Assembly: GCA_000438075.1 (NCBI GenBank)
Contig: FR903546.1
Location: 82,996-146,995, forward strand
Origin: Clostridium sp. CAG:609
GTDB lineage: Bacteria; Bacillota_I; Bacilli_A; RF39; UBA660
DNA length: 64,000 bases
Reading direction: 5' to 3'
How positions within the stretch are numbered: the first letter of the stretch is position 1; each line of letters opens with the position of its first letter. Positions 11,734 through 46,822 of the stretch are shown piece by piece. The notes beneath the pieces were generated by a model. It was not told the origin of the DNA. It saw nothing but the letters and a program-made list of their open reading frames with translations, and searched no databases. Made by a program: the position numbers and the translations under genes.

Positions 11734-13350
11734 ATGAATAAATTTATAAAAAAAATAAAAAATAATCAAGTGTTATACGTATTAAGTATCTTAATAATAG
11801 GTATATTACTCTTGCTTATTGCAAGAATTACATATGCATATTTAGCTCCAAGAATACAAAGTGCACTAAGTAATATAACAACTATATCTGATACAGTAGA
11901 TGATTTTAAATTGGAACTAGGGCAACCTCTAAGTCTAAATGCAACAGCAACAACACTACCAGAAAGTGGTTCAAATTTAGTGGTAACTTCAACAGAAATA
12001 GCAAGATTAAAAGCCAATAGTACAAAGAAAACAGCCAACTACAACTATTATTTATACTTACAAATTACTAATAACACATTTAAATATTCAGATGGAACAA
12101 CACCAGAAATAATACTTACAATAACAGATCCAAATGGTAATGAAATAACATCTTTAGATAATTTAACTTATGGAACATATAATGGTGTATCAGGTTTTGA
12201 TGTAACAACTAAAACTGGTTTATTTGCTATCGCAAATAACTATGAAATAACATCAAACTCAAGCACAACATATACGGAACATGATTGGAATATTACACTT
12301 ACATATCTAAATCTAAACATAGACCAATCAGGAAACTATGGCAATAGTTTTGAAACAAAGTTATATTTACAAAAAGAAGAAAAAGAATTAACGGCAACTG
12401 ATGTCTGCCCAGGTAAATCATTAAATGATTGTGTTATTGCTCAATATACTGGAATAAAAAATTCTAATATATATTATCACGATTCTAACCTAACAAATGG
12501 AGCAGGGGATAACTCATATAGATATGCAGGTGCAAGTAATCAAGTAAATAACTATGTATGTTTTGGATCAAACGTAGCACCATGCCCAGCAGATAATCTA
12601 TATAGAATAATCGGAGTATTTGGTGATAAAGTAAAACTAATCAAATCAGATTATGCAACGACAGCATTATTAGGTGCAGATGGAGATTACAGCAGGATGT
12701 ATACTGCAAATAATTGGGATAATTCAGCTTATAAAGGTAACAATTTAGCTAATATAGCAGGATATACATGGAATTATAATGGATTATCAGACCATACAGG
12801 AAATAATCAATACGGATCAAATACATGGAGTACAAGTTTGTTAAATAAAACAAATTTAAATACAAATTTCATAACAAATATAGGAGCAGACTGGGCAGCC
12901 AAAATAGATACAACAACATGGAAAGTTGGAGGAAATACATGGGAAAATATAGGAACCCAACCAGCTAAAACAGCATATCAAAATGAAATAGTAAGTCCAG
13001 TAACAACAAATACAACTGATAATGCAACAACATATAGTGCAAAAGTTGGCTTAATGTATGTAAGTGATTATGGATTTGCAGCAGCACCAAGTGCATGGAC
13101 AGCAAATTTAGACACTTATAATGGCGAAGCCATTAAAAATGTTAATTGGATGTATATGGGGCTGTATGAATGGACTATTTCCCGTTATGCGGGCTCTGAC
13201 TATCTTGCGTTCGGTGTGTATAGCACCGGTAGCGTGTCTTACAACATTGCGACTTATGTGCTTGCTTTGCGGCCAGTCTTCTATCTCGCATCTTCCGTGA
13301 ACTATGTATCGGGAAGCGGCACAGCCGCTGATCCTATTGTGGTAAACTAG
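11734..13350 (+). CDS. membrane-anchored or secreted surface protein with a C-terminal variable (C-type-lectin-like?) cassette
   Basis: N-terminal signal-anchor and an Asn/Thr-rich extracellular body. The C-terminal motif series reads MYVSDYGFA...NWMYMG.YEWT.SRY...RPVFYL...SGSGT..DP. The last ~200 nt are compositionally foreign (GC-rich). Confidence 0.8.
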   Translation: MNKFIKKIKNNQVLYVLSILIIGILLLLIARITYAYLAPRIQSALSNITTISDTVDDFKLELGQPLSLNATATTLPESGSNLVVTSTEIARLKANSTKKTANYNYYLYLQITNNTFKYSDGTTPEIILTITDPNGNEITSLDNLTYGTYNGVSGFDVTTKTGLFAIANNYEITSNSSTTYTEHDWNITLTYLNLNIDQSGNYGNSFETKLYLQKEEKELTATDVCPGKSLNDCVIAQYTGIKNSNIYYHDSNLTNGAGDNSYRYAGASNQVNNYVCFGSNVAPCPADNLYRIIGVFGDKVKLIKSDYATTALLGADGDYSRMYTANNWDNSAYKGNNLANIAGYTWNYNGLSDHTGNNQYGSNTWSTSLLNKTNLNTNFITNIGADWAAKIDTTTWKVGGNTWENIGTQPAKTAYQNEIVSPVTTNTTDNATTYSAKVGLMYVSDYGFAAAPSAWTANLDTYNGEAIKNVNWMYMGLYEWTISRYAGSDYLAFGVYSTGSVSYNIATYVLALRPVFYLASSVNYVSGSGTAADPIVVN

Positions 13351-35226: not shown

Positions 35227-36009
35227 TTATAACACAGTGTTCATATAATTCTTAACGTCATTTATAGGCATATTCAATATTTTTGCGATTTTTTTACAAG
35301 ATAATGATTTACCTAAAGATTGAATCATCTTTACTCTTTCTTTTGTTTCACCTTTGTTTTCAGCAATGGTACAAGCATCAATTAATCTGCTTTTGTCATT
35401 TTTTTTAAATTTAATGACATCTGGGTCATTAACAAAATCTTTTATTACTTCTATTGAACTCATAAACATCTCATCTCCTTCCGCTACTTCTTCCATTTTT
35501 TCATAGCTATTTGCTACAATAAATCTACACCACTGATTTAACCTTTGTTTACGTTTAGTATATTCTTTTTCTGAAGTTTTGTCAAGCCTTATTAATACAA
35601 TATCCATCAAATCATTTAGTAATATTTTTGAAGTGAATTCATTTCTTAGTTGATAATCGTTTAAAAATTCATTGTTTTCTAAAAATTCGTTAGTAATTAG
35701 GTTAATACTTGTTACCTTATTAGCTTTTGAGTATGTTTCTTGTTTCTTTAATTGATGTGAATATAACCATGAAGTATATGCAACAGACTTCTTACATTGT
35801 TCACTTCCAAAGTCATTATAAATTTCTATATTATAGATTTCATTATTTGATAATGTAACTAAAATATCTAAATAATAATCATGTAATGCAACATTGTCAT
35901 TTTGAATATACTTTTGAGGGATTGTGTTAACATATGCCACTTTAAGTGGAGAACCACAATACTCAAGATAAGCATTAACAAAATCTTTAACATATTCTGG
36001 GATAGACAT
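35227..36009 (-). CDS. Rpn/YhgA-like PD-(D/E)XK nuclease family protein (putative transposase family PDDEXK_2); the true start is probably upstream, near 36066
   Basis: DYYLDILV...IYNIEIY core. The in-frame upstream sequence encodes ...LTDDLVFKKI, the family's usual N-terminal motif, but has no ATG/GTG/TTG. Confidence 0.55.
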   Translation of the reverse strand: MSIPEYVKDFVNAYLEYCGSPLKVAYVNTIPQKYIQNDNVALHDYYLDILVTLSNNEIYNIEIYNDFGSEQCKKSVAYTSWLYSHQLKKQETYSKANKVTSINLITNEFLENNEFLNDYQLRNEFTSKILLNDLMDIVLIRLDKTSEKEYTKRKQRLNQWCRFIVANSYEKMEEVAEGDEMFMSSIEVIKDFVNDPDVIKFKKNDKSRLIDACTIAENKGETKERVKMIQSLGKSLSCKKIAKILNMPINDVKNYMNTVL

Positions 36010-36324: not shown

Positions 36325-36351
36325 TAAATAGTAGAGTAAGTGGAGGGAAAA

Positions 36352-38322
36352 ATGAAAAATAAGGGTTTTACTTTAGTGGAATTAATTGCAGTTATTGTAA
36401 TAATTGCCCTAGTACTAGCATTAACAACAGGTATATTTATAGGTGTACGAAAAAATATTTTAGAACAAGTATATGAAAACACTATAAACGACATCTTAAC
36501 AAAAGCAGAAAGTTATGCCAAAGAAACAGGTATTACTGGAACAATTGATATAAACGTTGATTTTTTAATTAAAAATGGGTATCTAAAAGCAGATGATGAT
36601 AAATATATATATGATCCAAGAAATAAAGATAATAAATTAAACTGTTATATGATTCACATTATCTTAAAAGACCAAGAATATGAAGCAACACTTCTAGATA
36701 AAAAAGAAAACAAAGATGGAACATGTAATGAAAATAGTTTTAATACTAGTGAAGTAAATATTTTTTGTAAGATGGATAATGAAGAAAATTTCCATGAGTG
36801 TAATGGCTGGTACAATAACAATTTAACATTAAAAATAGTAAGTAATAACAATAAAATTACTGAAGAAGACATAAAGATGAGTGAAGTTGAATATTCAAGC
36901 TTAAACGGTTATTATGAACTATTAAAAAAAGATTCATCAAAAGAAATAACAGTTAAAACTGATACAGTAGTTGATACAATATATACAGCTCTTGTTAAAA
37001 TAAATGATAAAAACTACACAGTAAGTCAAAAAATTAGTGTTGATAAAGAAAATCCAATTATTATATCTAAAAAACTAGATGTAGTATATAACAAAGGACA
37101 AGAATTAAAACTTAACACAACAGATTTAAGTGGATCAGGTATAAAAGGTTATCAATTAACAAAAACTGAATGCCCAAAAGATAACTATAGCAAAAATCCA
37201 ATTAAAATCACATCAAGTGGTAAATTTAATTTATGTGCAATGGATAACGTAGGTAACATAACAAAACAAGAAGTAAATATTAGTAAAATAACATTTAACT
37301 ATAATAATGTATCAAGTACAGATATCATTACAAAATCAATTTACTACATGAAAGAAGATTGTGAATATCCGCTTTTAACACCAGTACGTAATGGTTACTT
37401 ATTTGATTATTGGGAAAACCTTGAAGGTAATAGAGTGTATGATTTAAAAACAATTAAAGATGATGAAGTAGTAAATGCTAAATGGAATATCTTAGATGTT
37501 GATACCAAAGCTGATAGAATTGACAAAGGAACTATCGGCGTAAAAATTGAAAACAGAGTAAATCTCATATTAGTATTAGACATATCAGGAAGTATGTCAT
37601 CAAATTCCAGACTAACAAACTTAAAAGAAGTTTCAAACAATTTAATTGATAGTATGTCTTTTGATGTAGGTTCAACAATTTCTGTAATATCATTTGATGA
37701 TACAGCAACAACACTTTTAACAAAAGGAACAGACCCTGCAACAGCAAAAAGCATTATCAATGGTCTATCAACAAAAGGAAGTACCTCATTTAATAGTGGT
37801 CTAACCAATGCAAATAATTTAATCACAAATTATCTAGCTGGTGAAGATAATATATTTGTAATATTTGTAAGTGATGGATATGATAACTCAGGTTACTCAC
37901 CAAGCATTGGTAAAGAAGTAAAAGAAAAAGCTAAAACAGTATATTCGATTGGAATTGGTAGTGATGTTTCAACTCATGATTTAATTGATATTGCTTCCCC
38001 TAATTGTTACTTTAATGCAAGTGAAGGTCTTGAAAGTCTAAAAGAAATATTTACTAAAATTCAAGAAGAAATTCGAGAAGAGGTTACATACAGATCTAAA
38101 AATGGTTTGATACCACTACCTAATTTATATGTAGATGAAAATAATAAATTTGCTTTATTCGTAAATAACGAAGAACATGTATTTTCAAGTATGGATGAAA
38201 TCAGAGAAATATTAACAATCAACGAAGGAATCTATAACCTTGACTTAGTTAAAATTGATAATAAATATAAATTAAATGGTAACTTAAAAAGTATTGAGTT
38301 TACATATTATTACAATAAATAG
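36352..38322 (+). CDS. modular type IV pilin / pseudopilin with a C-terminal von Willebrand factor A domain
   Basis: Class III signal MKNKG|FTLVELIAVIVIIALV with Glu5. A Listeria-Bacteroides type repeat (NGYLFDYWEN...NAKW). A vWA MIDAS motif LDISGSMSS with downstream GSTSF and VSDG. Confidence 0.85.
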   Translation: MKNKGFTLVELIAVIVIIALVLALTTGIFIGVRKNILEQVYENTINDILTKAESYAKETGITGTIDINVDFLIKNGYLKADDDKYIYDPRNKDNKLNCYMIHIILKDQEYEATLLDKKENKDGTCNENSFNTSEVNIFCKMDNEENFHECNGWYNNNLTLKIVSNNNKITEEDIKMSEVEYSSLNGYYELLKKDSSKEITVKTDTVVDTIYTALVKINDKNYTVSQKISVDKENPIIISKKLDVVYNKGQELKLNTTDLSGSGIKGYQLTKTECPKDNYSKNPIKITSSGKFNLCAMDNVGNITKQEVNISKITFNYNNVSSTDIITKSIYYMKEDCEYPLLTPVRNGYLFDYWENLEGNRVYDLKTIKDDEVVNAKWNILDVDTKADRIDKGTIGVKIENRVNLILVLDISGSMSSNSRLTNLKEVSNNLIDSMSFDVGSTISVISFDDTATTLLTKGTDPATAKSIINGLSTKGSTSFNSGLTNANNLITNYLAGEDNIFVIFVSDGYDNSGYSPSIGKEVKEKAKTVYSIGIGSDVSTHDLIDIASPNCYFNASEGLESLKEIFTKIQEEIREEVTYRSKNGLIPLPNLYVDENNKFALFVNNEEHVFSSMDEIREILTINEGIYNLDLVKIDNKYKLNGNLKSIEFTYYYNK

Positions 38323-40337: not shown

Positions 40338-40571
40338 TTATGAAGATTTAACTTCTTCAGTAAAACCTTTCAAAGCTTTTAAAAATTCATCATGGTCATT
40401 TAGACCTACAAGAAATTCTTCACCATTAATGATATTAATTTTTCTAATACAAAACGAAGCAACATCATCAGTCTTAGTTAAAAAAACAAACTTTGCATTA
40501 TCAACTACTATTTCTTTAGTAACAATATAATCATTATTATCTTCGAGAGTTATTATTTCAACATCTTCCAT
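40338..40571 (-). CDS. DUF1292 domain protein
   Basis: Small acidic protein with the DNNDYIV...KFVFL pattern, similar to 17929..18192. Confidence 0.6.
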   Translation of the reverse strand: MEDVEIITLEDNNDYIVTKEIVVDNAKFVFLTKTDDVASFCIRKINIINGEEFLVGLNDHDEFLKALKGFTEEVKSS

Positions 40572-41272
40572 TATCTTGCTCCTCCTTGATTTAATTCACT
40601 AAGTAATTCATTTACTTCATCCATATTAACATTACCTTTTGCATACGCTATAAGGACTTTGTTCATTAAGGATTCATAGTCACTAAGTGAAATACTTTTA
40701 CTATCCAAATAATCTTGGAAAGAATTATGCATACAAGCTCTAATTTCATTTTCGGTATATTTACTTGGATCATTAGCTATAAGAGTAGACATATTTTGAA
40801 ATATTTTATCCATATGCTCAATCTTATCATAATCCCCAAGTTTATTATAACAACCATAGATTCTTGTATCAATATCATAATTTTTGTTATTATCCAAAAT
40901 ATCTTTTGATGCACCACCAACATCATACCACCAATAGTATTCACCAGCTTGTTCATTAAAGCCACCATATTCCTTATTAGCAGTAGCAGACTCTCCAAGT
41001 TCAGTCTCTATTCTTTTAACTTCAGCATTTAATTCTTGAGTATTTTTAATAGATTTAGCTCCAACAGTTAAAAGAGAACCAAGTGCTACAAACAATATAG
41101 CTTTTTCAGCCAAATTTTTAACACCTTTAGTTTTTTGAATAGTACGCCTTTTGTTTCTAACCTTAGGTCTATTTACACTCATTTCTTCAGCACTAGATGA
41201 AAAACTCCTTTTTGCAGTACCATCTTGATTAAATAGTGCATTAACAGAATAATCTAATTCATTTACATCCAT
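40571..41272 (-). CDS. hypothetical single-pass membrane protein
   Basis: One TM segment (AILFVALGSLLTVGA). No recognised domain. Confidence 0.5.
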   Translation of the reverse strand: MDVNELDYSVNALFNQDGTAKRSFSSSAEEMSVNRPKVRNKRRTIQKTKGVKNLAEKAILFVALGSLLTVGAKSIKNTQELNAEVKRIETELGESATANKEYGGFNEQAGEYYWWYDVGGASKDILDNNKNYDIDTRIYGCYNKLGDYDKIEHMDKIFQNMSTLIANDPSKYTENEIRACMHNSFQDYLDSKSISLSDYESLMNKVLIAYAKGNVNMDEVNELLSELNQGGAR

Positions 41273-41351
41273 TTTATACCTTCTTCCTATTATAATTTTA
41301 CCCTAAAAAGTGTAACTTGGCAATAAATTTTTTAAAATTTGACAAGTTATA

Positions 41352-41380
41352 TTGCAATGTTTTAGCTAATTTGGTATAAT
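41352..41380 (+). promoter_or_regulatory. sigma-A promoter of the four-gene operon
   Basis: TTGCAA, a 17-nt spacer, then TATAAT with a TG extension, ~20 nt before GTG 41399. Confidence 0.55.
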
Positions 41381-41398
41381 TTATGAAGAATAGGTTAG

Positions 41399-42475
41399 GT
41401 GAGGCTAGTGAGCTTAAGTGTAATAGATAAATATATAAGTAAAAAATCTAAAGACTTACTCGAATACGCAAAAATTTTAGAATCAATCATAAGTATTGAG
41501 GATAACAATTTGTGGCATAGCAAGAAAGATTTTACAAAATATGCAAAAGAAGTAATAGAAAATTATGCTGACAATTATTATTTCCAAAACAATATTCATA
41601 AGGATAATCCAATTGAGTATTCAAACGACAACATCAATTTTGTCTTAAAAGCAATCTTAGAATATTGTCGCCTACATGACACAATAGATATAGTAAAACT
41701 AAGAAAAAACGAAACATTTCTATTGTCAGTTATTATATGTAGTGCATGTTACGTAGATTTTGCTTGTAACGTCGTCGATGGTGATTATCAAGATACTAAA
41801 AATAAATTTAAATATCTACTTAGTTATTTGAGAAAAACTAAGGTATTAAATGTTAAAGACAACAAGTATTTTGTTAATGACTTATTCGAAGCAATCAAGA
41901 AAAACGCTGCAGAAGATAAAAAAATTCTAAGTGGTCTAGAAAGTGAAGCATTTAAAAACACATACAAGATGTTAAGTAACAATCCAGTAATATATGATGT
42001 ATCATATACTTACAACATTCCAGATTTAGAAAATTTTGATGAAAACTTATCCAAACGGGTACTTGCAACGTATGAAAATAAATTCTTTGAAATGTCACTC
42101 GATGTTTTAGAATTAAAAATTCTCGAAGAACTAATCAGCAACAGAGAAATGCCAACTTATGTAATTCGTGTTAACAAATATTTAAAAAAAGCAAACATCG
42201 TTAGAAAATTAAATAACAAATATTTAAAAGATAATATTAAAATATTAATTCCGTTTGAACACGAAGTTGAGTATCAAACAAACATTAAAGATTTAAAAGA
42301 AATAGGTATGAGTTTTATCTACGAACTTGAAGAAACCAAAAACATCGAAGCAACAATATTTATGGATAATACGGAAGTGCTCGTAGACAAAGAATTTATA
42401 AAAAATAATTTAGACAATGAAAATAATTTCAAAAAAATGAACGTTAAACTAATTGTAAAGAATAAGGAGGATTAG
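41399..42475 (+). CDS. hypothetical cytoplasmic protein, first gene of the McrB-like operon
   Basis: 358 aa, GTG start, no TM segment and no motif I can assign. It stops 3 nt before the next start. Confidence 0.6.
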   Translation: MRLVSLSVIDKYISKKSKDLLEYAKILESIISIEDNNLWHSKKDFTKYAKEVIENYADNYYFQNNIHKDNPIEYSNDNINFVLKAILEYCRLHDTIDIVKLRKNETFLLSVIICSACYVDFACNVVDGDYQDTKNKFKYLLSYLRKTKVLNVKDNKYFVNDLFEAIKKNAAEDKKILSGLESEAFKNTYKMLSNNPVIYDVSYTYNIPDLENFDENLSKRVLATYENKFFEMSLDVLELKILEELISNREMPTYVIRVNKYLKKANIVRKLNNKYLKDNIKILIPFEHEVEYQTNIKDLKEIGMSFIYELEETKNIEATIFMDNTEVLVDKEFIKNNLDNENNFKKMNVKLIVKNKED

Positions 42476-42478
42476 AAG

Positions 42479-43984
42479 ATGAGTGTGTATGGTGAATTTT
42501 TTACAAAGTTTATGGGACCATTATTCGAAGGGTTCATAAAAATATTCAAGGGTTTAGGTGAAGGGTTATTCCAAATGTTTAATGTAGTAACTTACATAAC
42601 AGTAATCGGGGACTATAAAAGTGATTTAAAAGGATTAGGTCTATTAGTAATGGTTTTATCAATAGTATTCCTACTTGCAATAATGGCACTTATTGTGTTC
42701 TTAATCTATAAATCAGTAAAAACATATCTAAGATATCGTAGAAATGTTAAAAAAGAAGACATGTTAGTAGAAGAAATTGATTCATTAAATAATGAAATTT
42801 TCAAACTAAAAAGAAATGCTGAAAAGTTCAGTGAACTTGCAAATGCAAACGGAGAAATTGAATACAATGAAGACGGAACTCCAAAGAACGAACTAAAAGA
42901 AGGAGAAAGCAGATTCTTTAAACTAAGTACAGTTGATGCAAAATTCAAAGACTATACTCCTGAAGAAATTGTTAACAACTTCACATTAGAAAGTTTCTGC
43001 GATACATTCAGAAATTATTCAGCATCAAAATTACATCTATATTATGATATAAACTTAATTAGATTATTTATTGCATCATTTGCATCAAACAAATTAATCA
43101 TTCTAGAAGGTATTTCTGGAACAGGTAAAACATCTCTAGCATATGCTTTTGGTAATTTCGTAGATAATGAAACAACTGTTGCATCAGTTCAACCTTCATG
43201 GAGAGACTCAACAGAAATATTTGGTTACTTCAATGAATTTACAAAGAAATTCAATGAAACAGAAATTCTAGAAAAAATGTATGAAGCTCAATATGATGAT
43301 GAAGTATATATTACATTACTTGATGAAATGAATATTTCTCGTGTTGAATATTACTTCGCAGAAATGTTATCTATCTTGGAACTTCCAAATAAAAAAGACT
43401 GGGTAGTTGAACTAGTTCCAAATGTTTGGCCAAATGACCCAATCAAACTAGAAAATGGTAAATTAAAAATTCCTGAAAATATGTGGTACATTGGTACAAT
43501 CAACAACGATGACTCAACATTCATGATTACCGACAAGGTATACGATAGAGCAATGCCAATTGCAATCGATGATAAATGTGAAGAATTCGAAGCTCCTGAT
43601 ACTGACAAAATTAAAACAAGTTATAAGTACTTAGAAAGTTTATTTGAAAAAGCTAGTGCAGAACATCCAGTTAGTCAAGAAAACTTAGATAAAATTGCTC
43701 AACTAGATAGATATGTAATTGATCACTTTAGACTTGCATTTGGTAACAGAATTGTAAAACAATTAAAAGAATTCGTACCAGCATTCGTTGCATGTGGTGG
43801 TGAAGAAGTCGCAGGTATTGACTATCTAATCGCTCACAAAATATTAAGAAAATTTGAACAATTAAATTTAGCATATATCAAAGATGAAATTGATGGTTTA
43901 ATTAATTATTTTGAAAAACTATTCGGAGCAGGAAAAACTCCAGAATGTAAAGCATACTTACTAAGACTTAAGAAAACTATTTAG
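42479..43984 (+). CDS. membrane-anchored McrB-like AAA+ (GTPase/ATPase) protein
   Basis: TM helix at ~aa 52-76, then a coiled coil. Walker A GISGTGKTS. LLDEMNISRVEYYFAEMLSILE resembles McrB DEINRAN..kvFGE. GTINNDDSTF...DRA resembles McrB MNTADRS...RRRF. Confidence 0.75.
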   Translation: MSVYGEFFTKFMGPLFEGFIKIFKGLGEGLFQMFNVVTYITVIGDYKSDLKGLGLLVMVLSIVFLLAIMALIVFLIYKSVKTYLRYRRNVKKEDMLVEEIDSLNNEIFKLKRNAEKFSELANANGEIEYNEDGTPKNELKEGESRFFKLSTVDAKFKDYTPEEIVNNFTLESFCDTFRNYSASKLHLYYDINLIRLFIASFASNKLIILEGISGTGKTSLAYAFGNFVDNETTVASVQPSWRDSTEIFGYFNEFTKKFNETEILEKMYEAQYDDEVYITLLDEMNISRVEYYFAEMLSILELPNKKDWVVELVPNVWPNDPIKLENGKLKIPENMWYIGTINNDDSTFMITDKVYDRAMPIAIDDKCEEFEAPDTDKIKTSYKYLESLFEKASAEHPVSQENLDKIAQLDRYVIDHFRLAFGNRIVKQLKEFVPAFVACGGEEVAGIDYLIAHKILRKFEQLNLAYIKDEIDGLINYFEKLFGAGKTPECKAYLLRLKKTI

Positions 43985-43992
43985 GTGAGTCT

Positions 43993-45081
43993 ATGGATAT
44001 AGTAGAATATATTAATAATTTAAATAAGGAAAAAGCCTCAGCATTCGTTGGGGCAACTTCCTCAAATATAACCGTCAAAAGGGATATTGATGCTTGTGTA
44101 AGTGATACATCATGGATAGACATGGTCGAAGAATGTATTCCTTATCTAGATAACATCATAAGAAATCCCAGAAGATTTATTGTTCAAGAAGAAAAAATCG
44201 TACCAATTGAAAAAGCAAAAGTCGTAACTGAAGAATCAATCAGACACTTAGCTCAACACACAAGTATGATTCAAGAAGTACATGATGATGGCACAGTAAT
44301 CCCTTTAAAACTATTAAATGTTTATAGAGAAGAAACTGTTGACTTATACGAAAACCGATTCATAAAGTCCTTAGTTGATAACCTTTATACATTTGTAAAT
44401 AACAAATTATCTGAATCAGACCAAAAAAGTTATGCAAATGTCGATAGTGAAGTAACTTACCAAGGTATAATGAAGAAAAAAGGTGAAGAAGTAAACATCA
44501 ATGTAACAATGACTAGCAAAAAAGAAACTGAAGTTGATGCATCAAAAGATGGACATAGCTTAGATGAACGTATTGAACACATCAGAGATATCATTAATGC
44601 ATTTCGTTCATCAACATTTATTAAAAGTCTAAAAGAATCTAGTCCTGTAAGAAGTCCAATTAGAAAAACTAATGTAATATTAAAAGAACAAAACTTTATC
44701 AAAGCATTAGAACTTTGGGAATACCTAGAAAAAAATAACATAAAACCTGTTACAAGCAAAGATAAAAGAACTGAAGTATTACATGATTCTGACATTAAAA
44801 CTAAGTTTGACTTTGCATTTTTCGTTGATAATGAAGCAATCGAAATCAAAAAAACAAATCAAACTGCAGAATTTAATTCAGCAATCATAAGTAAACTAGT
44901 AAATGACTTTGTCTTCGCCGGAGACATAACAGAAAAAGAATTTAAAAGATTAATGGAAAAAGAAATGAAAGAAGCAAAGAAACGTAAAGAAAAAGCTGAA
45001 ACTGGTATAAGAAAAACAATTGATGCATTCTTTCAAGACTTTGATAAGAAAAAGAAAAAAATAAATTTATTAATAAAGTAG
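43993..45081 (+). CDS. McrC/DUF2357-like protein without an obvious nuclease domain
   Basis: The N-terminal half has the PRRF...VPIEK...LYENRFIKSLV pattern seen in McrC/DUF2357 partners of McrB. The C-terminus is Lys-rich. Only a weak D...EIK candidate is present. Confidence 0.5.
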   Translation: MDIVEYINNLNKEKASAFVGATSSNITVKRDIDACVSDTSWIDMVEECIPYLDNIIRNPRRFIVQEEKIVPIEKAKVVTEESIRHLAQHTSMIQEVHDDGTVIPLKLLNVYREETVDLYENRFIKSLVDNLYTFVNNKLSESDQKSYANVDSEVTYQGIMKKKGEEVNINVTMTSKKETEVDASKDGHSLDERIEHIRDIINAFRSSTFIKSLKESSPVRSPIRKTNVILKEQNFIKALELWEYLEKNNIKPVTSKDKRTEVLHDSDIKTKFDFAFFVDNEAIEIKKTNQTAEFNSAIISKLVNDFVFAGDITEKEFKRLMEKEMKEAKKRKEKAETGIRKTIDAFFQDFDKKKKKINLLIK

Positions 45082-45093
45082 GTGATGGTAAAA

Positions 45094-46758
45094 ATGGCTA
45101 AAAAGAAAGAAATGAATGAAGAACAAACATTTATGAAAAATAAAGAAGTCATAGATATTAAAAAATTTATGCTTTTAAAAAGCAAAGAACAAGATGATTT
45201 AATAATTGATACTTTAAATAAGATGTATGAAGGTGCTATCGAAGTATCAAAAAAACACATCGATAAAGTACTAAATGTTGTATTTGATAACAAAGATAAT
45301 GATACATTTTTGCCTCATTCTTTGAGAGTTTCTAAAAATGGAAACAAATTAATTTTTGAATTTAAAAAAGGTAACAATGCTTTACTAATTTTATTTCTAC
45401 TTGGTTTTTTATTTCTAGCAGGTTATGCAACATATGCTGGAGTTCAATTAATAGGTAAATCAAAAATGAACATCGATTTAAATGGTGATGGAATTCCTGA
45501 TTTAAATATTGATTTAGATGGAGATGGTATATGTGATGTAAACTGTGACACCAACAAAGATAAAAAACCAGATCAAAACATTGATTATAGAAATAGCAAT
45601 AAGCCAACATTTAATGTAGTTCGTCCAGATGGCACTATATTTAATGAAATGAATCAACTAGATGAATCTGGTAAATGTAAATTAAATTGTGATACCGATA
45701 AAGATGGCTGGCCAGATACAAACATTGACTTAGATGGAGATGGTAAAGCAGATATAAATATCGATATTGATGGTGATGGAAATCCAGATTTAAATATCGA
45801 TACAAATGGAGATGGAGTACCAGATGTTAATATTGATGATGATAATGATGGTAAATGTGATCGAAATTGTGTATCAAACATTGTTGCTAACAACAAAGGA
45901 CAACTTGATGTTGATTTAGATGGCGATGGTAAATGTGATATAAACTGTGATACAAACGGTGATAAAATACCTGAAGAAAAAATAGATTACGCCGGAAATA
46001 AGAAACCAATATTTAATGTTCCAGATGAAAATGGAAATTTAACAAATAAAACAAACCAAGATACAAATGGTGATGGCAAATGTGATTTAAATTGTGATAT
46101 TGATAAAGATGGCTGGCCAGATATAAATGTTGATTTAGATGGCGATGGCAAAGCAGATTTAAACATAGACCTTGATGGTGATGGAACACCAGATTTAAAT
46201 ATCGATACAAATGGAGATGGAAAACCTGATTTCAATATTGATGAAGATGGCGATGGCAAGTGTGATCGAAATTGTACATACATAATTGATAAAAATGGAA
46301 AAGGTGGTTCAACAACAATCGGCGACAATGGTGCTAATATTGAAGCTGCTGCATTGGTTGTAATGTTTGAAGATGGTAACAATATAGCATTATCAAATCT
46401 TTATCCAGATGATCAAGATGATCCAAATGTTAACACAAAAGTGCCAGACATCAGATTCTCAATTGAAAATACAACAGATAAACCATTAAAATATAACATT
46501 GAATGGATTGATGTTGAAAATACATTTACAAGTCCAAATTTTTGGTTTAAAGTATCAAGTACTTATAATGGATTTAACCAAGACTGGACAACAGCACCAA
46601 AATCTAATGGAAGAATGGCTACTGAAGTAGTGGTTGCACCTAAATCAAAACAAATTTACACAGTTTCATTTACATTACATGGAACTGGACAACCACAAAA
46701 CTACGACCAAGGCAAATACTTCCGTGGTAAAGTTGCAATAGATATTATCGAAGACTAG
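45094..46758 (+). CDS. single-pass membrane protein with extracytoplasmic DxDGDG (thrombospondin-type-3-like, Ca-binding) and CDxNC repeats
   Basis: A ~95-aa cytoplasmic N-terminus and a TM segment LLILFLLGFLFLAGYATYAGV. Two ~120-aa tandem units are packed with D-x-D-G-D-G-x-x-D, followed by a ~140-aa beta-rich C-terminal domain. Confidence 0.7.
   Translation: MAKKKEMNEEQTFMKNKEVIDIKKFMLLKSKEQDDLIIDTLNKMYEGAIEVSKKHIDKVLNVVFDNKDNDTFLPHSLRVSKNGNKLIFEFKKGNNALLILFLLGFLFLAGYATYAGVQLIGKSKMNIDLNGDGIPDLNIDLDGDGICDVNCDTNKDKKPDQNIDYRNSNKPTFNVVRPDGTIFNEMNQLDESGKCKLNCDTDKDGWPDTNIDLDGDGKADINIDIDGDGNPDLNIDTNGDGVPDVNIDDDNDGKCDRNCVSNIVANNKGQLDVDLDGDGKCDINCDTNGDKIPEEKIDYAGNKKPIFNVPDENGNLTNKTNQDTNGDGKCDLNCDIDKDGWPDINVDLDGDGKADLNIDLDGDGTPDLNIDTNGDGKPDFNIDEDGDGKCDRNCTYIIDKNGKGGSTTIGDNGANIEAAALVVMFEDGNNIALSNLYPDDQDDPNVNTKVPDIRFSIENTTDKPLKYNIEWIDVENTFTSPNFWFKVSSTYNGFNQDWTTAPKSNGRMATEVVVAPKSKQIYTVSFTLHGTGQPQNYDQGKYFRGKVAIDIIED
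45511..46275 (+). repeat. in-frame tandem duplication (units 45511..45870 and 45913..46275) encoding Asp/Gly/Cys repeats
   Basis: The two units align residue by residue: DLDGDG.CD.NCDTN.D..P...IDY...KP.FNV...GKC.LNCD.DKDGWPD.N.DLDGDGKAD.NID.DGDG.PDLNIDTNGDG.PD.NID.D.DGKCDRNC. Confidence 0.85.
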
Positions 46759-46777
46759 TTAGTGCTAGTCTTTTTCT
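46752..46777 (+). terminator. rho-independent terminator of the four-gene operon
   Basis: agactag-ttagtg-ctagtct hairpin followed by a T run. It overlaps the stop codon. Confidence 0.7.
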
Positions 46778-46822
46778 CATATATTTGTTATAATAAAACC
46801 AAGGAGTGGTAAAATAGTAATT

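What the first reader, a model, noticed from the sequence alone, without database searches (positions are those of the whole stretch)
41339..46777. Four-gene operon with a membrane-tethered McrB-like AAA+ protein, a nuclease-less McrC-like partner and a Ca-repeat membrane protein: candidate uncharacterised McrBC-derived system
**What the sequence shows.** The four genes are separated by 3, 8 and 0-12 nt, with one promoter (41352..41380) and one terminator (46752..46777).
- **Gene 2.** It has the McrB-type AAA+ core: GISGTGKTS, LLDEMNISRVEYYFAEMLSILE and GTINNDDSTF...DRA. The usual N-terminal DNA-reader domain is replaced by a short N-terminus, one TM helix and a coiled coil.
- **Gene 3.** Its N-terminal half carries the McrC/DUF2357-like ...LYENRFIKSLV... 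region. I cannot find a convincing PD-(D/E)XK motif; there is only a weak D..EIK. The protein ends in a Lys-rich tail.
- **Gene 4.** It has a ~95-aa cytoplasmic head, one TM helix, ~280 aa of DxDGDG/CDxNC repeats that are presumably Ca-binding and extracytoplasmic, and a beta-rich C-terminal domain.
- **Gene 1.** A 358-aa soluble protein with no motif I recognise.

**Interpretation.** Classical McrBC is a soluble DNA-translocating restriction system. Here the motor is anchored to the membrane, paired with a surface-exposed repeat protein, and lacks an evident nuclease. That suggests either a repurposed McrBC module (envelope-linked phage sensing or abortive infection) or a non-defence function. 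I am not aware of a described system with this composition, but I cannot search databases from here.
Basis: partly seen in the sequence, partly recalled or inferred. Interest (0 to 1): 0.8.

Follow-up and report, generated by a model that had tools for sequence, protein, structure and literature searches.

The report
Membrane-anchored McrBC-like module for surface fibres
This four-gene operon is a reduced variant of the named but untested "CoCoPALM" class, in which a restriction-enzyme motor (McrBC) has lost its nuclease, is anchored in the membrane and is linked to TasA-like surface-fibre proteins, so it more likely builds or controls a cell-surface structure than cuts phage DNA.

Summary
In detail: four co-directional genes with gaps of 3, 8 and 0 nt, a promoter-like site and a terminator hairpin.

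- **Gene 2** is a McrB-type AAA+ protein. Its signature is the NxD variant (N342, D344 invariant), behind one TM helix and a short coiled coil.
- **Gene 3** carries the McrC N-terminal domain (DUF2357). No conserved acidic residue follows position 121, so no PD-(D/E)xK nuclease is evident.
- **Gene 4** ends in a domain related to small secreted proteins of the camelysin/TasA family.
- **Gene 1** is family-specific. A low-confidence model suggests a degenerate EAL-like fold.

Bell et al. (eLife 2024) named "CoCoPALM" systems: NxD McrB fused to an FtsB-like TM and coiled coil, plus McrC, linked to signal peptidases. They gave no characterisation.

In 80 related gut and rumen Bacillota loci, the gene 2-gene 3 pair is essentially universal. 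SipW-type signal peptidases flank it in 58 of 62 non-type-A loci, but in only 3 of 21 loci of this window's type and not in the window.

Full-length relatives are absent from the plasmid, phage and viral collections searched. I favour surface-fibre or adhesin biogenesis over defence (about 0.55). This is a new variant of a known but uncharacterised kind.

The parts
41352..41380 (+). Sigma-70-like promoter candidate (TTGCAA-17-TATAAT with extended -10 TG)
   Evidence: 10 of 12 matches. Consensus match only; such sites are not enriched over shuffles in this AT-rich region.
41399..42475 (+). g1: cytoplasmic family-specific protein (probable real start GTG 41408, 355 aa). N-terminal helical region plus a C-terminal beta/alpha region that may be a degenerate EAL-like fold.
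   Evidence: No hit in Pfam, NCBIfam, PADLOC or PHROGs. Homologous to the gene immediately upstream of the McrB-like gene in type B loci (hhalign 98.9%, E 4e-17). AF2 model pLDDT 58, about 80-87 for residues 250-358. The top six Foldseek PDB hits are all EAL domains (E 3.5e-3 to 3e-2).
42479..43984 (+). g2: membrane-anchored McrB-like AAA+ NTPase of the NxD type
   Evidence: Best PDB hit is the E. coli McrB AAA+ domain (6hz4, E 1.4e-4). PADLOC PDC-M26A E 4.6e-42. 8196 cluster representatives at 50% identity reach E<=1e-3. Identical to CDF20833.1 of Clostridium sp. CAG:609.
42632..42709 (+). g2 transmembrane helix (res 52-77), followed by a basic RYRRNVKK stretch
   Evidence: Hydropathy. Conserved across 26 homologues from Bacilli and Clostridia.
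42755..42844 (+). g2 short coiled-coil stalk (res 93-122), FtsL/DivIC/FtsB-like in architecture
   Evidence: The profile of the N-terminal 145 residues hits designed coiled coils, NEMO, geminin and GCN4 over positions 87-122. Sub-threshold Pfam FtsL hits in 10 of 26 members and DivIC in 5 of 26. NCBIfam ftsL_broad E 0.089.
43058..43600 (+). g2 AAA+ core: Walker A 43109-43135, Walker B 43316-43333, NxD signature within 43493-43522
   Evidence: Residue-by-residue alignment to McrB. N342 and D344 are invariant and D345 is not. Across 150 relatives the motif reads GT(A/I)NxD(D/E)STF.
43993..45081 (+). g3: McrC-like partner without a recognisable nuclease. DUF2357 at res 52-148 (44146-44436), a second conserved block PVRSPIRKTN...LW at res 218-245 (44644-44727), and a charged Lys-rich C-terminal helix at res 314-361 (44932-45075).
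   Evidence: Pfam DUF2357 E 2e-11, 44.1 bits against a cut-off of 23.3. In 53 homologues no column is >=80% acidic after residue 121. No PDB hit by sequence or profile. The AF2 model is unusable (pLDDT 37.8).
45082..46758 (+). g4: bitopic surface protein. Conserved cytoplasmic head (res 1-98), TM ending in ATYAG (res 100-121; 45379-45444), Asp-rich DxDGDG/CxxxC repeats (res 127-400; 45460-46281) and a camelysin/TasA-related beta domain (res 410-554; 46309-46743).
   Evidence: for the architecture. The C-terminal domain gives BLASTP E 8.6e-14, 1.2e-8 and 5.7e-6 to small SipW-signal proteins of L001. Profile-profile comparison gives 99.0%, E 8e-18. One of those small proteins scores above the Pfam cut-off for Peptidase_M73 (27.4 against 22.5 bits). 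g4 itself has no direct Pfam hit.
46750..46780 (+). Intrinsic-terminator-like hairpin overlapping the g4 stop codon, followed by a U-tract
   Evidence: -12.3 kcal/mol, z = -3.94; 1 of 200 shuffles folds as well.

Best explanation
The locus is a reduced, signal-peptidase-less variant of the CoCoPALM class of McrBC derivatives. It most likely acts at the cytoplasmic membrane in the biogenesis, anchoring or regulated display of camelysin/TasA-type surface fibres or adhesins, not in DNA restriction.

**Shown.**
- g2 has an intact McrB-type AAA+ core with the NxD signature, tethered by one TM helix and a short coiled coil.
- g3 has the McrC N-terminal (DUF2357) domain, which in McrBC plugs the McrB ring and stimulates hydrolysis. 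It has no conserved nuclease residues.
- g4 carries a camelysin/TasA-related ectodomain on a Ca-type repeat stalk. It has a conserved cytoplasmic head, and its TM ends in a degenerate SipW-type motif.
- In relatives, the g2-g3 pair sits among SipW-type signal peptidases, several small and large proteins with SipW-type signal motifs and, in Clostridia, an EAL-domain gene.

**Inferred.**
- g2 forms a membrane-proximal hexameric ring whose NTPase is switched on by g3.
- g3 may bridge rings through its C-terminal helix.
- The work of the ring is passed through the coiled coil and TM, or through the cytoplasmic head of g4, to promote export, assembly, anchoring or release of the TasA-like subunits.
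- g1, if it really is a degenerate EAL-like protein, would couple this to c-di-GMP, as FimX and LapD do for pili and adhesins.
For: **Identity of the core.**
- g2 versus McrB.
- NxD signature conserved family-wide.
- g3 DUF2357 above threshold, with no conserved acidic residues after position 121 in 53 homologues.
- The published CoCoPALM definition fits: NxD McrB fused to an FtsB-like TM and coiled coil, McrC with coiled coil, and signal peptidases taken as pilus assembly factors.

**Context in 80 GTDB loci plus 3 metagenome loci.**
- g2-g3 are adjacent in essentially all loci that are long enough.
- Archaeal/SipW-type signal peptidase I scores above the NCBIfam cut-off next to the pair (TIGR02228: 78.8, 97.5 and 57.0 bits against 51.85).
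- It lies within 10 kb in 29 of 30 type B loci and 29 of 32 other loci.
- Neighbouring proteins carry (Y/F)A(W/Y)F signal motifs.
- The type B small proteins c3 and c6 are related to the camelysin-like set (hhalign 97.5% and 91%).
- An EAL-domain gene is present in Clostridial loci (E 1.4e-46).

**Links from g4 and g1.**
- g4's C-terminal domain links to the camelysin family.
- The g1 family is conserved next to g2 in two locus types.
- The g1 model's top six fold hits are all EAL domains, including the c-di-GMP receptors FimX and LapD.

**Against mobility.**
- No full-length relative in 72,556 plasmids, 50,697 phages or 2.9 million viral contigs.
- At least 589 relatives in GTDB species genomes.
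- g2 keeps 50-55% identity between Bacilli and Clostridia.
- The window's flanks are housekeeping genes: cdsA- and rseP-like ORFs (identified by reading, not scanned), then PBP, MraY and FtsW.
Against: - No signal peptidase lies in this operon or anywhere in the 64-kb window. Only 3 of 21 loci of the window's type have one nearby.
- No known TasA or camelysin system needs a cytoplasmic NTPase (B. subtilis TasA/TapA/SipW; my own knowledge, in line with the abstracts listed).
- The link from g4 to Peptidase_M73 is transitive; g4 itself gets no Pfam or PDB hit.
- The EAL reading of g1 rests on a model with pLDDT 58 and Foldseek E-values of only 3.5e-3 to 3e-2, with TM-scores of 0.22-0.46. Sequence profiles do not support it significantly (hhalign 3.6-6.6%). 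No residue is invariant in the family.
- The whole ancestry of the module is in defence systems, and g2 matches a PADLOC candidate-defence profile.
- No experiment exists for any member of the class.
Confidence: 0.55

Rival explanations
1. It is an envelope-linked anti-phage or abortive-infection system. The surface protein g4 would sense phage adsorption or envelope damage and signal through its cytoplasmic head to the membrane-tethered McrBC-like motor. The motor would then act on an unidentified effector or on the membrane itself.
For: McrBC and CoCoNuT relatives are defence systems. g2 matches PADLOC PDC-M26A at E 4.6e-42. One related locus (L001) lies beside an AAA_21/RloB pair and a diversity-generating retroelement. 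Flanking genes differ between more distant relatives.
Against: - No nuclease or other recognisable effector is in the operon.
- Only g2 hits any PADLOC profile, and PDC systems are themselves untested candidates.
- No full-length relative was found on plasmids, phages or viral contigs.
- g2 is unusually conserved for a defence gene (50-55% identity between bacterial classes).
- The window's context is housekeeping cell-envelope genes.
- The recurrent partners are signal peptidases, secreted fibre-like proteins and an EAL gene.
Confidence: 0.2
2. It is a c-di-GMP-controlled switch for adhesin retention or release, not an assembly motor. This would be analogous to LapD/LapG inside-out signalling. 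g1 would bind c-di-GMP, the g2-g3 ring would change state, and the TM and coiled coil would transmit this outwards to control cleavage of g4 or other surface proteins by a SipW-type peptidase at the ATYAG-like site.
For: The fold hits of the g1 model include the LapD and FimX degenerate EAL receptors. A true EAL gene is present in Clostridial loci. Signal peptidases are multiplied in the loci (mean 2.4 per type B locus). A degenerate signal motif is conserved at the end of the g4 TM in 18 orthologues.
Against: The EAL assignment is weak. The N-terminal part of g2 outside the membrane is at most about 50 residues. There is no peptidase in the window. It does not explain why an NTP-burning ring would be needed for a switch.
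Confidence: 0.12
3. It has a role in cell division or envelope growth. The FtsB/FtsL/DivIC-like TM and coiled coil of g2 would recruit the motor to the divisome, and the operon lies next to PBP2B-like, MraY and FtsW genes.
For: Weak FtsL and DivIC similarity of the g2 N-terminus. The operon lies beside PBP, MraY and FtsW genes in the window and in L004-L007, L010 and L011.
Against: The FtsL and DivIC hits are all below threshold and may reflect only the TM-plus-leucine-zipper architecture. The synteny with division genes holds only among close relatives; type B and C loci sit elsewhere. The family-wide partners are peptidases and secreted proteins, not divisome genes.
Confidence: 0.08

Closest known systems
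[quoted passage not shown]
   Same: NxD-type McrB-like NTPase fused to a TM helix plus coiled coil. A McrC homologue (DUF2357) lies directly downstream and has a C-terminal charged helix. Related loci are packed with SipW-type signal peptidases.
   Different: The window's variant has no signal peptidase in 64 kb. It instead carries g4, a membrane-anchored Ca-repeat protein with a camelysin/TasA-related domain, together with the g1 family. The paper gives only a few sentences and no gene-by-gene description, so whether its authors saw this subtype cannot be told from the text; the supplements held as text do not mention the class.
Canonical McrBC type IV restriction (E. coli K-12; PDB 6hz4, 6ut6)
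   Same: AAA+ core with Walker A, Walker B and an Asn/Asp signature that aligns to McrB. The partner has the McrC N-terminal domain. The gene order is B then C.
   Different: There is no DNA-binding N-terminal domain, the protein is membrane-anchored, the signature is NxD rather than NxxD, and the partner has no PD-(D/E)xK nuclease.
CoCoNuT systems (same paper) and the PADLOC candidate PDC-M26
   Same: Same NxD branch of McrB-like NTPases, with a coiled coil N-terminal to the AAA+ domain and a McrC homologue that often lacks an active nuclease. g2 hits the PDC-M26A profile.
   Different: According to the paper, CoCoNuTs are soluble, have long coiled coils and always carry another nuclease (HEPN and others) when McrC is inactive. 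Here there is a TM anchor, only about 30 residues of coiled coil, and no nuclease gene. No other PDC-M26 component is matched.
TasA/TapA/SipW biofilm-fibre operon of Bacillus subtilis and camelysin/CalY of B. cereus
   Same: Related loci combine SipW-type signal peptidases with small secreted proteins of the Peptidase_M73 (camelysin/TasA) family that carry the typical aromatic signal motif. The g4 ectodomain belongs to that set by transitive homology.
   Different: The known TasA systems have no cytoplasmic NTPase (my own knowledge). g4 is not a free secreted subunit: it has a 98-aa cytoplasmic head, a TM anchor and a long repeat stalk.
Degenerate EAL c-di-GMP receptors that control pili and adhesins (FimX of Xanthomonas/Pseudomonas, LapD)
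   Same: These are the best fold matches of the g1 model. A cytoplasmic regulator sits next to an NTPase or transmembrane relay that governs a surface appendage.
   Different: There is no significant sequence similarity and no conserved EAL catalytic or binding residues. The model is of low confidence.

Membership tests
McrBC (McrB-like AAA+ GTPase plus McrC) | AAA+ core with Walker A and Walker B that is most similar to McrB among solved structures | tested here: met
   the top three PDB hits are E. coli McrB (6hz4, 6ut6, 7vsr; E about 1.5e-4), aligned over residues 194-374. Pfam AAA_5 is only sub-threshold (E 0.015).
McrBC (McrB-like AAA+ GTPase plus McrC) | Nx(x)D signature motif after the sensor-1 position | tested here: met
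   GTINNDDSTF. N342 and D344 are invariant in 22 sequences. The motif reads GT(A/I)NxD(D/E/Q/G/A)STF across 150 representatives, which is the NxD variant.
McrBC (McrB-like AAA+ GTPase plus McrC) | N-terminal DNA-recognition domain on McrB | tested here: not met
   Residues 1-190 consist of an amphipathic segment, one TM helix, a coiled coil and a linker. No DNA-binding family is hit.
McrBC (McrB-like AAA+ GTPase plus McrC) | Adjacent partner carrying the McrC N-terminal domain (DUF2357) | tested here: met
   (E 2e-11, above the cut-off). The pair is adjacent in essentially all 83 related loci that are long enough.
McrBC (McrB-like AAA+ GTPase plus McrC) | PD-(D/E)xK nuclease domain in McrC | tested here: not met
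   No column is >=80% acidic after residue 121 in 53 homologues. No nuclease family is hit. The fold could not be checked because the model has pLDDT 37.8.
McrBC (McrB-like AAA+ GTPase plus McrC) | GTP-dependent translocation on, and cleavage of, modified DNA | not testable with these tools
   This is a biochemical property.
CoCoPALM (Bell et al. 2024) | McrB homologue of the NxD clade | tested here: met
   Met by motif. Placement in the published tree was not tested.
CoCoPALM (Bell et al. 2024) | GTPase fused to an FtsB-like transmembrane plus coiled-coil module | tested here: inconclusive
   The architecture is met: TM helix at 52-77 and coiled coil at 93-122. Homology to FtsB, FtsL or DivIC is only sub-threshold: FtsL in 10 of 26 members, DivIC in 5 of 26 with best E 0.0012, and ftsL_broad E 0.089.
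CoCoPALM (Bell et al. 2024) | Coiled coil on the McrC homologue | tested here: inconclusive
   A charged C-terminal helix at residues 314-361 is predicted, but only in a low-confidence model. The profile gives only weak helical-protein hits.
CoCoPALM (Bell et al. 2024) | Genomic association with signal-peptidase-family proteins | tested here: not met
   None is found in the 64-kb window by tblastn or HMM. The feature is met in relatives: 29 of 30 type B and 29 of 32 other loci, but only 3 of 21 loci of the window's own type.
CoCoNuT (Bell et al. 2024) | Closely linked HEPN or other nuclease when the McrC nuclease is missing | tested here: not met
   No nuclease family is hit in g1-g4. The nearest nuclease-like ORF (PDDEXK_2, 35227-36009, minus strand) is 5 kb away and separated by housekeeping genes.
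PADLOC candidate system PDC-M26 | All components of the multi-gene candidate present | tested here: not met
   Only g2 hits PDC-M26A, through its AAA+ region. g1, g3 and g4 hit nothing in PADLOC.
Camelysin/TasA family (Pfam Peptidase_M73), for the g4 C-terminal domain | Profile match to the family | tested here: inconclusive
   There is no direct Pfam or PDB hit for g4. The link is transitive. g4 residues 410-554 match small SipW-signal proteins (BLASTP E 8.6e-14; hhalign 99.0%). Three of those proteins hit Peptidase_M73, and one scores above the cut-off.
Camelysin/TasA family (Pfam Peptidase_M73), for the g4 C-terminal domain | N-terminal SipW-type signal peptide | tested here: not met
   g4 has a 98-aa cytoplasmic head before the TM helix. 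The TM ends in a conserved ATYAG, which resembles but does not match the (T/S)x(F/Y)A(Y/W)F motif of its small relatives.
EAL domain (c-di-GMP phosphodiesterase or receptor), for g1 | Profile match and conserved catalytic or binding residues | tested here: not met
   No EAL hit in any of 45 family members. hhalign against true EAL neighbours gives 3.6-6.6%. The family has no invariant column.
EAL domain (c-di-GMP phosphodiesterase or receptor), for g1 | EAL (beta/alpha) barrel fold | tested here: inconclusive
   The top six Foldseek hits are all EAL domains (probability 0.93-1.0), but E is only 3.5e-3 to 3e-2, TM-scores are 0.22-0.46 and the model has pLDDT 58. The profile also weakly hits a designed TIM barrel.

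The most novel reading that the evidence does not exclude
An McrBC-derived AAA+ ring, stripped of its nuclease and tethered to the membrane, serves as the cytoplasmic engine or assembly platform of a previously unrecognised fibre or pilus machine in Gram-positive gut bacteria. The machine would export or assemble SipW-processed camelysin/TasA-type subunits and large adhesins under c-di-GMP control through a degenerate EAL partner (g1). The window would hold a minimal version in which the fibre-type domain is built into a membrane-anchored protein (g4).
Probability: 0.35. Interest if true: 0.85.

Novelty: new variant of a known kind. Interest (0 to 1): 0.6.

Why it matters
McrBC is the textbook GTP-driven restriction motor. 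A branch that has lost DNA binding and the nuclease, sits in the membrane and travels with signal peptidases and TasA-like proteins would be a clear case of a defence motor being put to work on a cell-surface structure.

The family is common. At least 589 relatives were found in species-level genomes, the closest 80 all from gut or rumen assemblies, mostly Bacillota. The window's own protein is seen on 159 contigs. A role in adhesion or biofilm formation would therefore bear on how abundant but uncultured gut lineages (Clostridium sp. CAG:609 and its relatives) colonise.

TasA-type fibres are thought to assemble without cytoplasmic energy. A dedicated NTPase would change that picture.

The class has a name but no published anatomy or experiment. 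The three locus types, the g1 family and the camelysin link described here give concrete things to test.

Tried and rejected
- **g3 structure.** AF2 on the only alignment I was allowed to use (9 sequences, >=81% identical) gave pLDDT 37.8. It is unusable, so I ran no fold search, and the question of a cryptic nuclease fold rests on conservation alone.
- **g3 against solved structures.** Single-sequence and profile searches found no McrC or nuclease hit.
- **g1 at the sequence level.** Pfam on all 45 family members and a PDB profile search gave nothing significant apart from a designed TIM barrel.
- **g1 versus true EAL domains.** hhalign against the EAL proteins of type C loci was collinear but not significant. 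I therefore treat the EAL reading as a lead only.
- **A g1-like domain in long McrC homologues.** I tested whether the long Clostridial McrC homologues (650-980 aa) carry a fused g1-like or EAL domain. They do not (hhalign <1%).
- **g4 C-terminal domain against solved structures.** The profile found no TasA hit.
- **Virus families.** PHROGs gave nothing for any of the four proteins.
- **PDC-M26.** No paper mentions it. The source paper shows that PDC systems are untested guilt-by-embedding candidates.
- **MoxR-type reading of g2.** I considered and rejected it. The best structural relatives are McrB, and the partner is DUF2357.
- **Link to the prepilin/VWA gene at 36340-38322.** I considered it but rejected it as part of the unit. 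Housekeeping-type genes lie between the two, and the gene does not recur in related loci.

Full report
**1. The observation**

The four ORFs exist at the stated coordinates, on the + strand, with gaps of 3, 8 and 0 nt.
- g2 has Walker A (res 211-219), Walker B (280-285) and GTINNDDSTF (339-348). It has one strongly hydrophobic segment (52-77) followed by a heptad region (93-122).
- g3 has DLYENRFIKSLV and a Lys-rich tail.
- g4 has a 98-aa head, a TM segment (100-121), 11 DxDGDG motifs and six CxxxC pairs. Tandem Repeats Finder reports two arrays of 36-nt (12-aa) units.

The promoter at 41352-41380 is a good consensus match, but such matches are not enriched in this AT-rich DNA. A hairpin with a U-tract overlaps the g4 stop codon (-12.3 kcal/mol, z -3.9). 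Homologues of g1 are 355 aa, so its start is probably the GTG at 41408.

**2. What the proteins are**

*g2.* Its best matches among solved structures are the E. coli McrB AAA+ domains (E about 1.5e-4), aligned through Walker A, Walker B and the signature motif.
- It hits the PADLOC candidate profile PDC-M26A (E 4.6e-42) through the AAA+ region only.
- An exhaustive search found 8196 cluster representatives at 50% identity (738 at E<=1e-30).
- Across the best 150, the signature reads GT(A/I)NxD(D/E/Q/G/A)STF. In a 22-sequence alignment N342 and D344 are invariant and the next residue is not.
- This is the NxD variant that Bell et al. use to define the branch holding the CoCoNuT and CoCoPALM systems, "usually followed by a glutamate or a second aspartate".
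- Relatives come with one TM helix (about 500 aa, like the window), two TM helices, four TM helices (about 600 aa), or none and a long N-terminus (700-850 aa).
- The N-terminal 145 residues are conserved between Bacilli and Clostridia. They comprise an amphipathic segment, the TM helix, a basic patch, then (V/I)EQE(S/A)LLEEVxxLNxEVxxL.
- The profile of this region hits coiled-coil proteins. It gives sub-threshold FtsL, FtsL_2 and DivIC hits in 5-10 of 26 members.

*g3.* It matches DUF2357, the McrC N-terminal domain, above the Pfam cut-off (E 2e-11).
- In 53 homologues (27-81% identical) the conserved residues lie in res 18-130 and in a second block, P222-K225-T226-N227...W242.
- No column after residue 121 is >=80% acidic, so there is no conserved PD-(D/E)xK triad.
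- Sequence and profile searches of the PDB found nothing.
- The structure prediction failed (pLDDT 37.8). "Nuclease-less" is therefore supported by conservation, not by fold.

*g4.* The C-terminal domain (res 410-554) matches small secreted proteins of a related locus at BLASTP E 8.6e-14, 1.2e-8 and 5.7e-6.
- As a profile it matches that set at 99.0% (E 8e-18).
- Three of those small proteins hit Pfam Peptidase_M73 (camelysin/TasA family), and one scores above the cut-off.
- They carry the (T/S)x(F/Y)A(Y/W)F motif of SipW-dependent signal peptides.
- g4 itself has no direct Pfam or PDB hit, so the link is transitive.
- Eighteen g4 orthologues share the cytoplasmic head and a TM helix ending in ATYAG, a degenerate form of that signal motif.

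*g1.* It has no hit in any profile library.
- Its family is homologous to the gene immediately upstream of the McrB-like gene in a second locus type (hhalign 98.9%, E 4e-17).
- The AF2 model is poor overall (pLDDT 58) but reaches about 80-87 over the beta/alpha C-terminus.
- Its six best PDB fold matches are all EAL domains: BifA, FimX (three entries) and LapD (two chains). E-values are 3.5e-3 to 3e-2 and TM-scores 0.22-0.46.
- Sequence evidence for an EAL relationship is not significant, and the family has no invariant residue.
- I treat "degenerate EAL-like" as a lead, not a finding.

**3. Context in other genomes**

The best 80 are full-length, 50-89% identical, and come from gut or rumen assemblies labelled mostly Bacilli/"Tenericutes", Erysipelotrichaceae, Oscillospiraceae, Acutalibacteraceae, Christensenellaceae and Ruminococcus, with a few labelled otherwise, such as Muribaculaceae. 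The window's g2 is identical to CDF20833.1 of Clostridium sp. CAG:609 and is seen on 159 contigs.

g3 follows g2 in essentially every locus that is long enough. Three locus types emerge.
- **Type A** (the window's type, 21 loci): g1-g2-g3-g4.
- **Type B** (30 loci): a run of SipW-type signal peptidases and small signal-motif proteins, then a g1 homologue, g2, g3, another SipW, camelysin-related small proteins, further signal-motif proteins and a protein of 1100-1900 aa.
- **Type C** (Clostridia): an EAL-domain gene, signal-motif proteins, SipW, g2, a long g3 (650-980 aa), and further signal-motif proteins or a protein of about 2400 aa.

The signal peptidases score above the NCBIfam cut-off for archaeal/SipW-type signal peptidase I. 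The EAL gene scores E 1.4e-46. SipW-like genes lie within 10 kb in 29 of 30 type B and 29 of 32 other loci, but in only 3 of 21 type A loci. None is present in the window.

The window does hold another protein of the g4/camelysin-related cluster with an ITYAYL signal (11734-13350). A cognate peptidase probably exists elsewhere in the genome; this is inference.

**4. Comparison with the literature**

Bell et al. [quoted passage not shown] They name the clade CoCoPALM and defer it to a forthcoming publication.
- I found no later paper using the name.
- The supplements held as text do not mention it.

The family of the window's g2-g3 pair fits this definition. The window's own locus lacks the peptidase link. 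The PADLOC PDC systems are untested candidates predicted by guilt-by-embedding, and no other PDC-M26 component is matched here.

**5. Defence or not**

Against a defence role:
- The operon holds no effector.
- No full-length relative was found in 72,556 plasmids, 50,697 phages or 2.9 million viral contigs; only AAA+ cores at <=40% identity matched.
- g2 is strongly conserved across classes.
- The flanks in the window and its close relatives are housekeeping genes: cdsA- and rseP-like ORFs (by reading, not scanned), then PBP, MraY and FtsW.
- The recurrent partners are peptidases, secreted fibre-type proteins and a c-di-GMP gene.

For a defence role:
- The ancestry of the module is in defence systems.
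- g2 matches the PADLOC candidate profile.
- One related locus lies next to an AAA_21/RloB pair and a diversity-generating retroelement.

**6. Proposed mechanism**

All of this is inferred.
- g2 forms a membrane-proximal ring.
- g3 plugs the ring and activates it as McrC does for McrB, and may link rings through its C-terminal helix.
- The output is passed through the coiled coil and TM helix, or through the g4 head, to the export, anchoring or release of camelysin/TasA-type subunits.
- g1 may add c-di-GMP control.

The main weaknesses are three. This window has no peptidase. Known TasA systems need no NTPase. The g1 assignment is weak.

**7. Verdict**

The locus is a new, reduced variant of a class that has a name but has not been characterised.
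- Membership of the CoCoPALM family is likely (about 0.85).
- The surface-fibre reading is favoured at about 0.55.

Noticed in passing
window 36340-38322 (+): A 660-aa protein with a prepilin-type N-terminal methylation motif (N_methyl, E 7.7e-7) and a VWA domain (E 8.9e-15). This suggests a type IV pilin-like adhesin. It lies 3 kb upstream of the operon and is separated from it by cdsA- and rseP-like genes.
   Followed up: partly
window 11734-13350 (+): A 538-aa protein of the same BLAST cluster as the g4 C-terminal domain and the camelysin-like proteins. It has an N-terminal signal ending in ITYAYL. This suggests that the genome has SipW-type substrates, and so probably a peptidase outside the window.
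   Followed up: partly
L001 14547-18876: A diversity-generating retroelement (bAvd plus reverse transcriptase) sits between two proteins of the camelysin-related cluster, just downstream of a type A locus. It may diversify these surface proteins.
   Followed up: no
L001 3976-6169: An AAA_21 ATPase plus RloB pair (a typical defence-type pair) lies 3 kb upstream of the type A locus in this relative.
   Followed up: no
proteins P0161-P0262: Many NxD-type McrB relatives carry four (about 560-700 aa) or two predicted TM helices instead of one. This is a polytopic membrane form of the motor that I did not examine.
   Followed up: no
L026, L040, L048 and 18 other loci (type C): The McrC homologues of Clostridia are 650-980 aa. 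The first 390 or so residues align with g3. The extension of 300-600 aa matches nothing tested, neither g1 nor EAL.
   Followed up: partly
window 35227-36009 (-): A PDDEXK_2 'nuclease family transposase' ORF (E 3.2e-20) in the region upstream of the prepilin/VWA gene.
   Followed up: no
window 40338-41272 (-): Two divergently transcribed ORFs (233 aa and 77 aa) with no family hit. They are conserved at the same position in close relatives (L004, L006, L010; clusters c26 and c22).
   Followed up: no
protein P0479: A g3 homologue (DUF2357, 81% identical) is named 'signal peptidase I' by JGI. This is probably an annotation carried over from neighbouring genes, but it echoes the peptidase association.
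   Followed up: no
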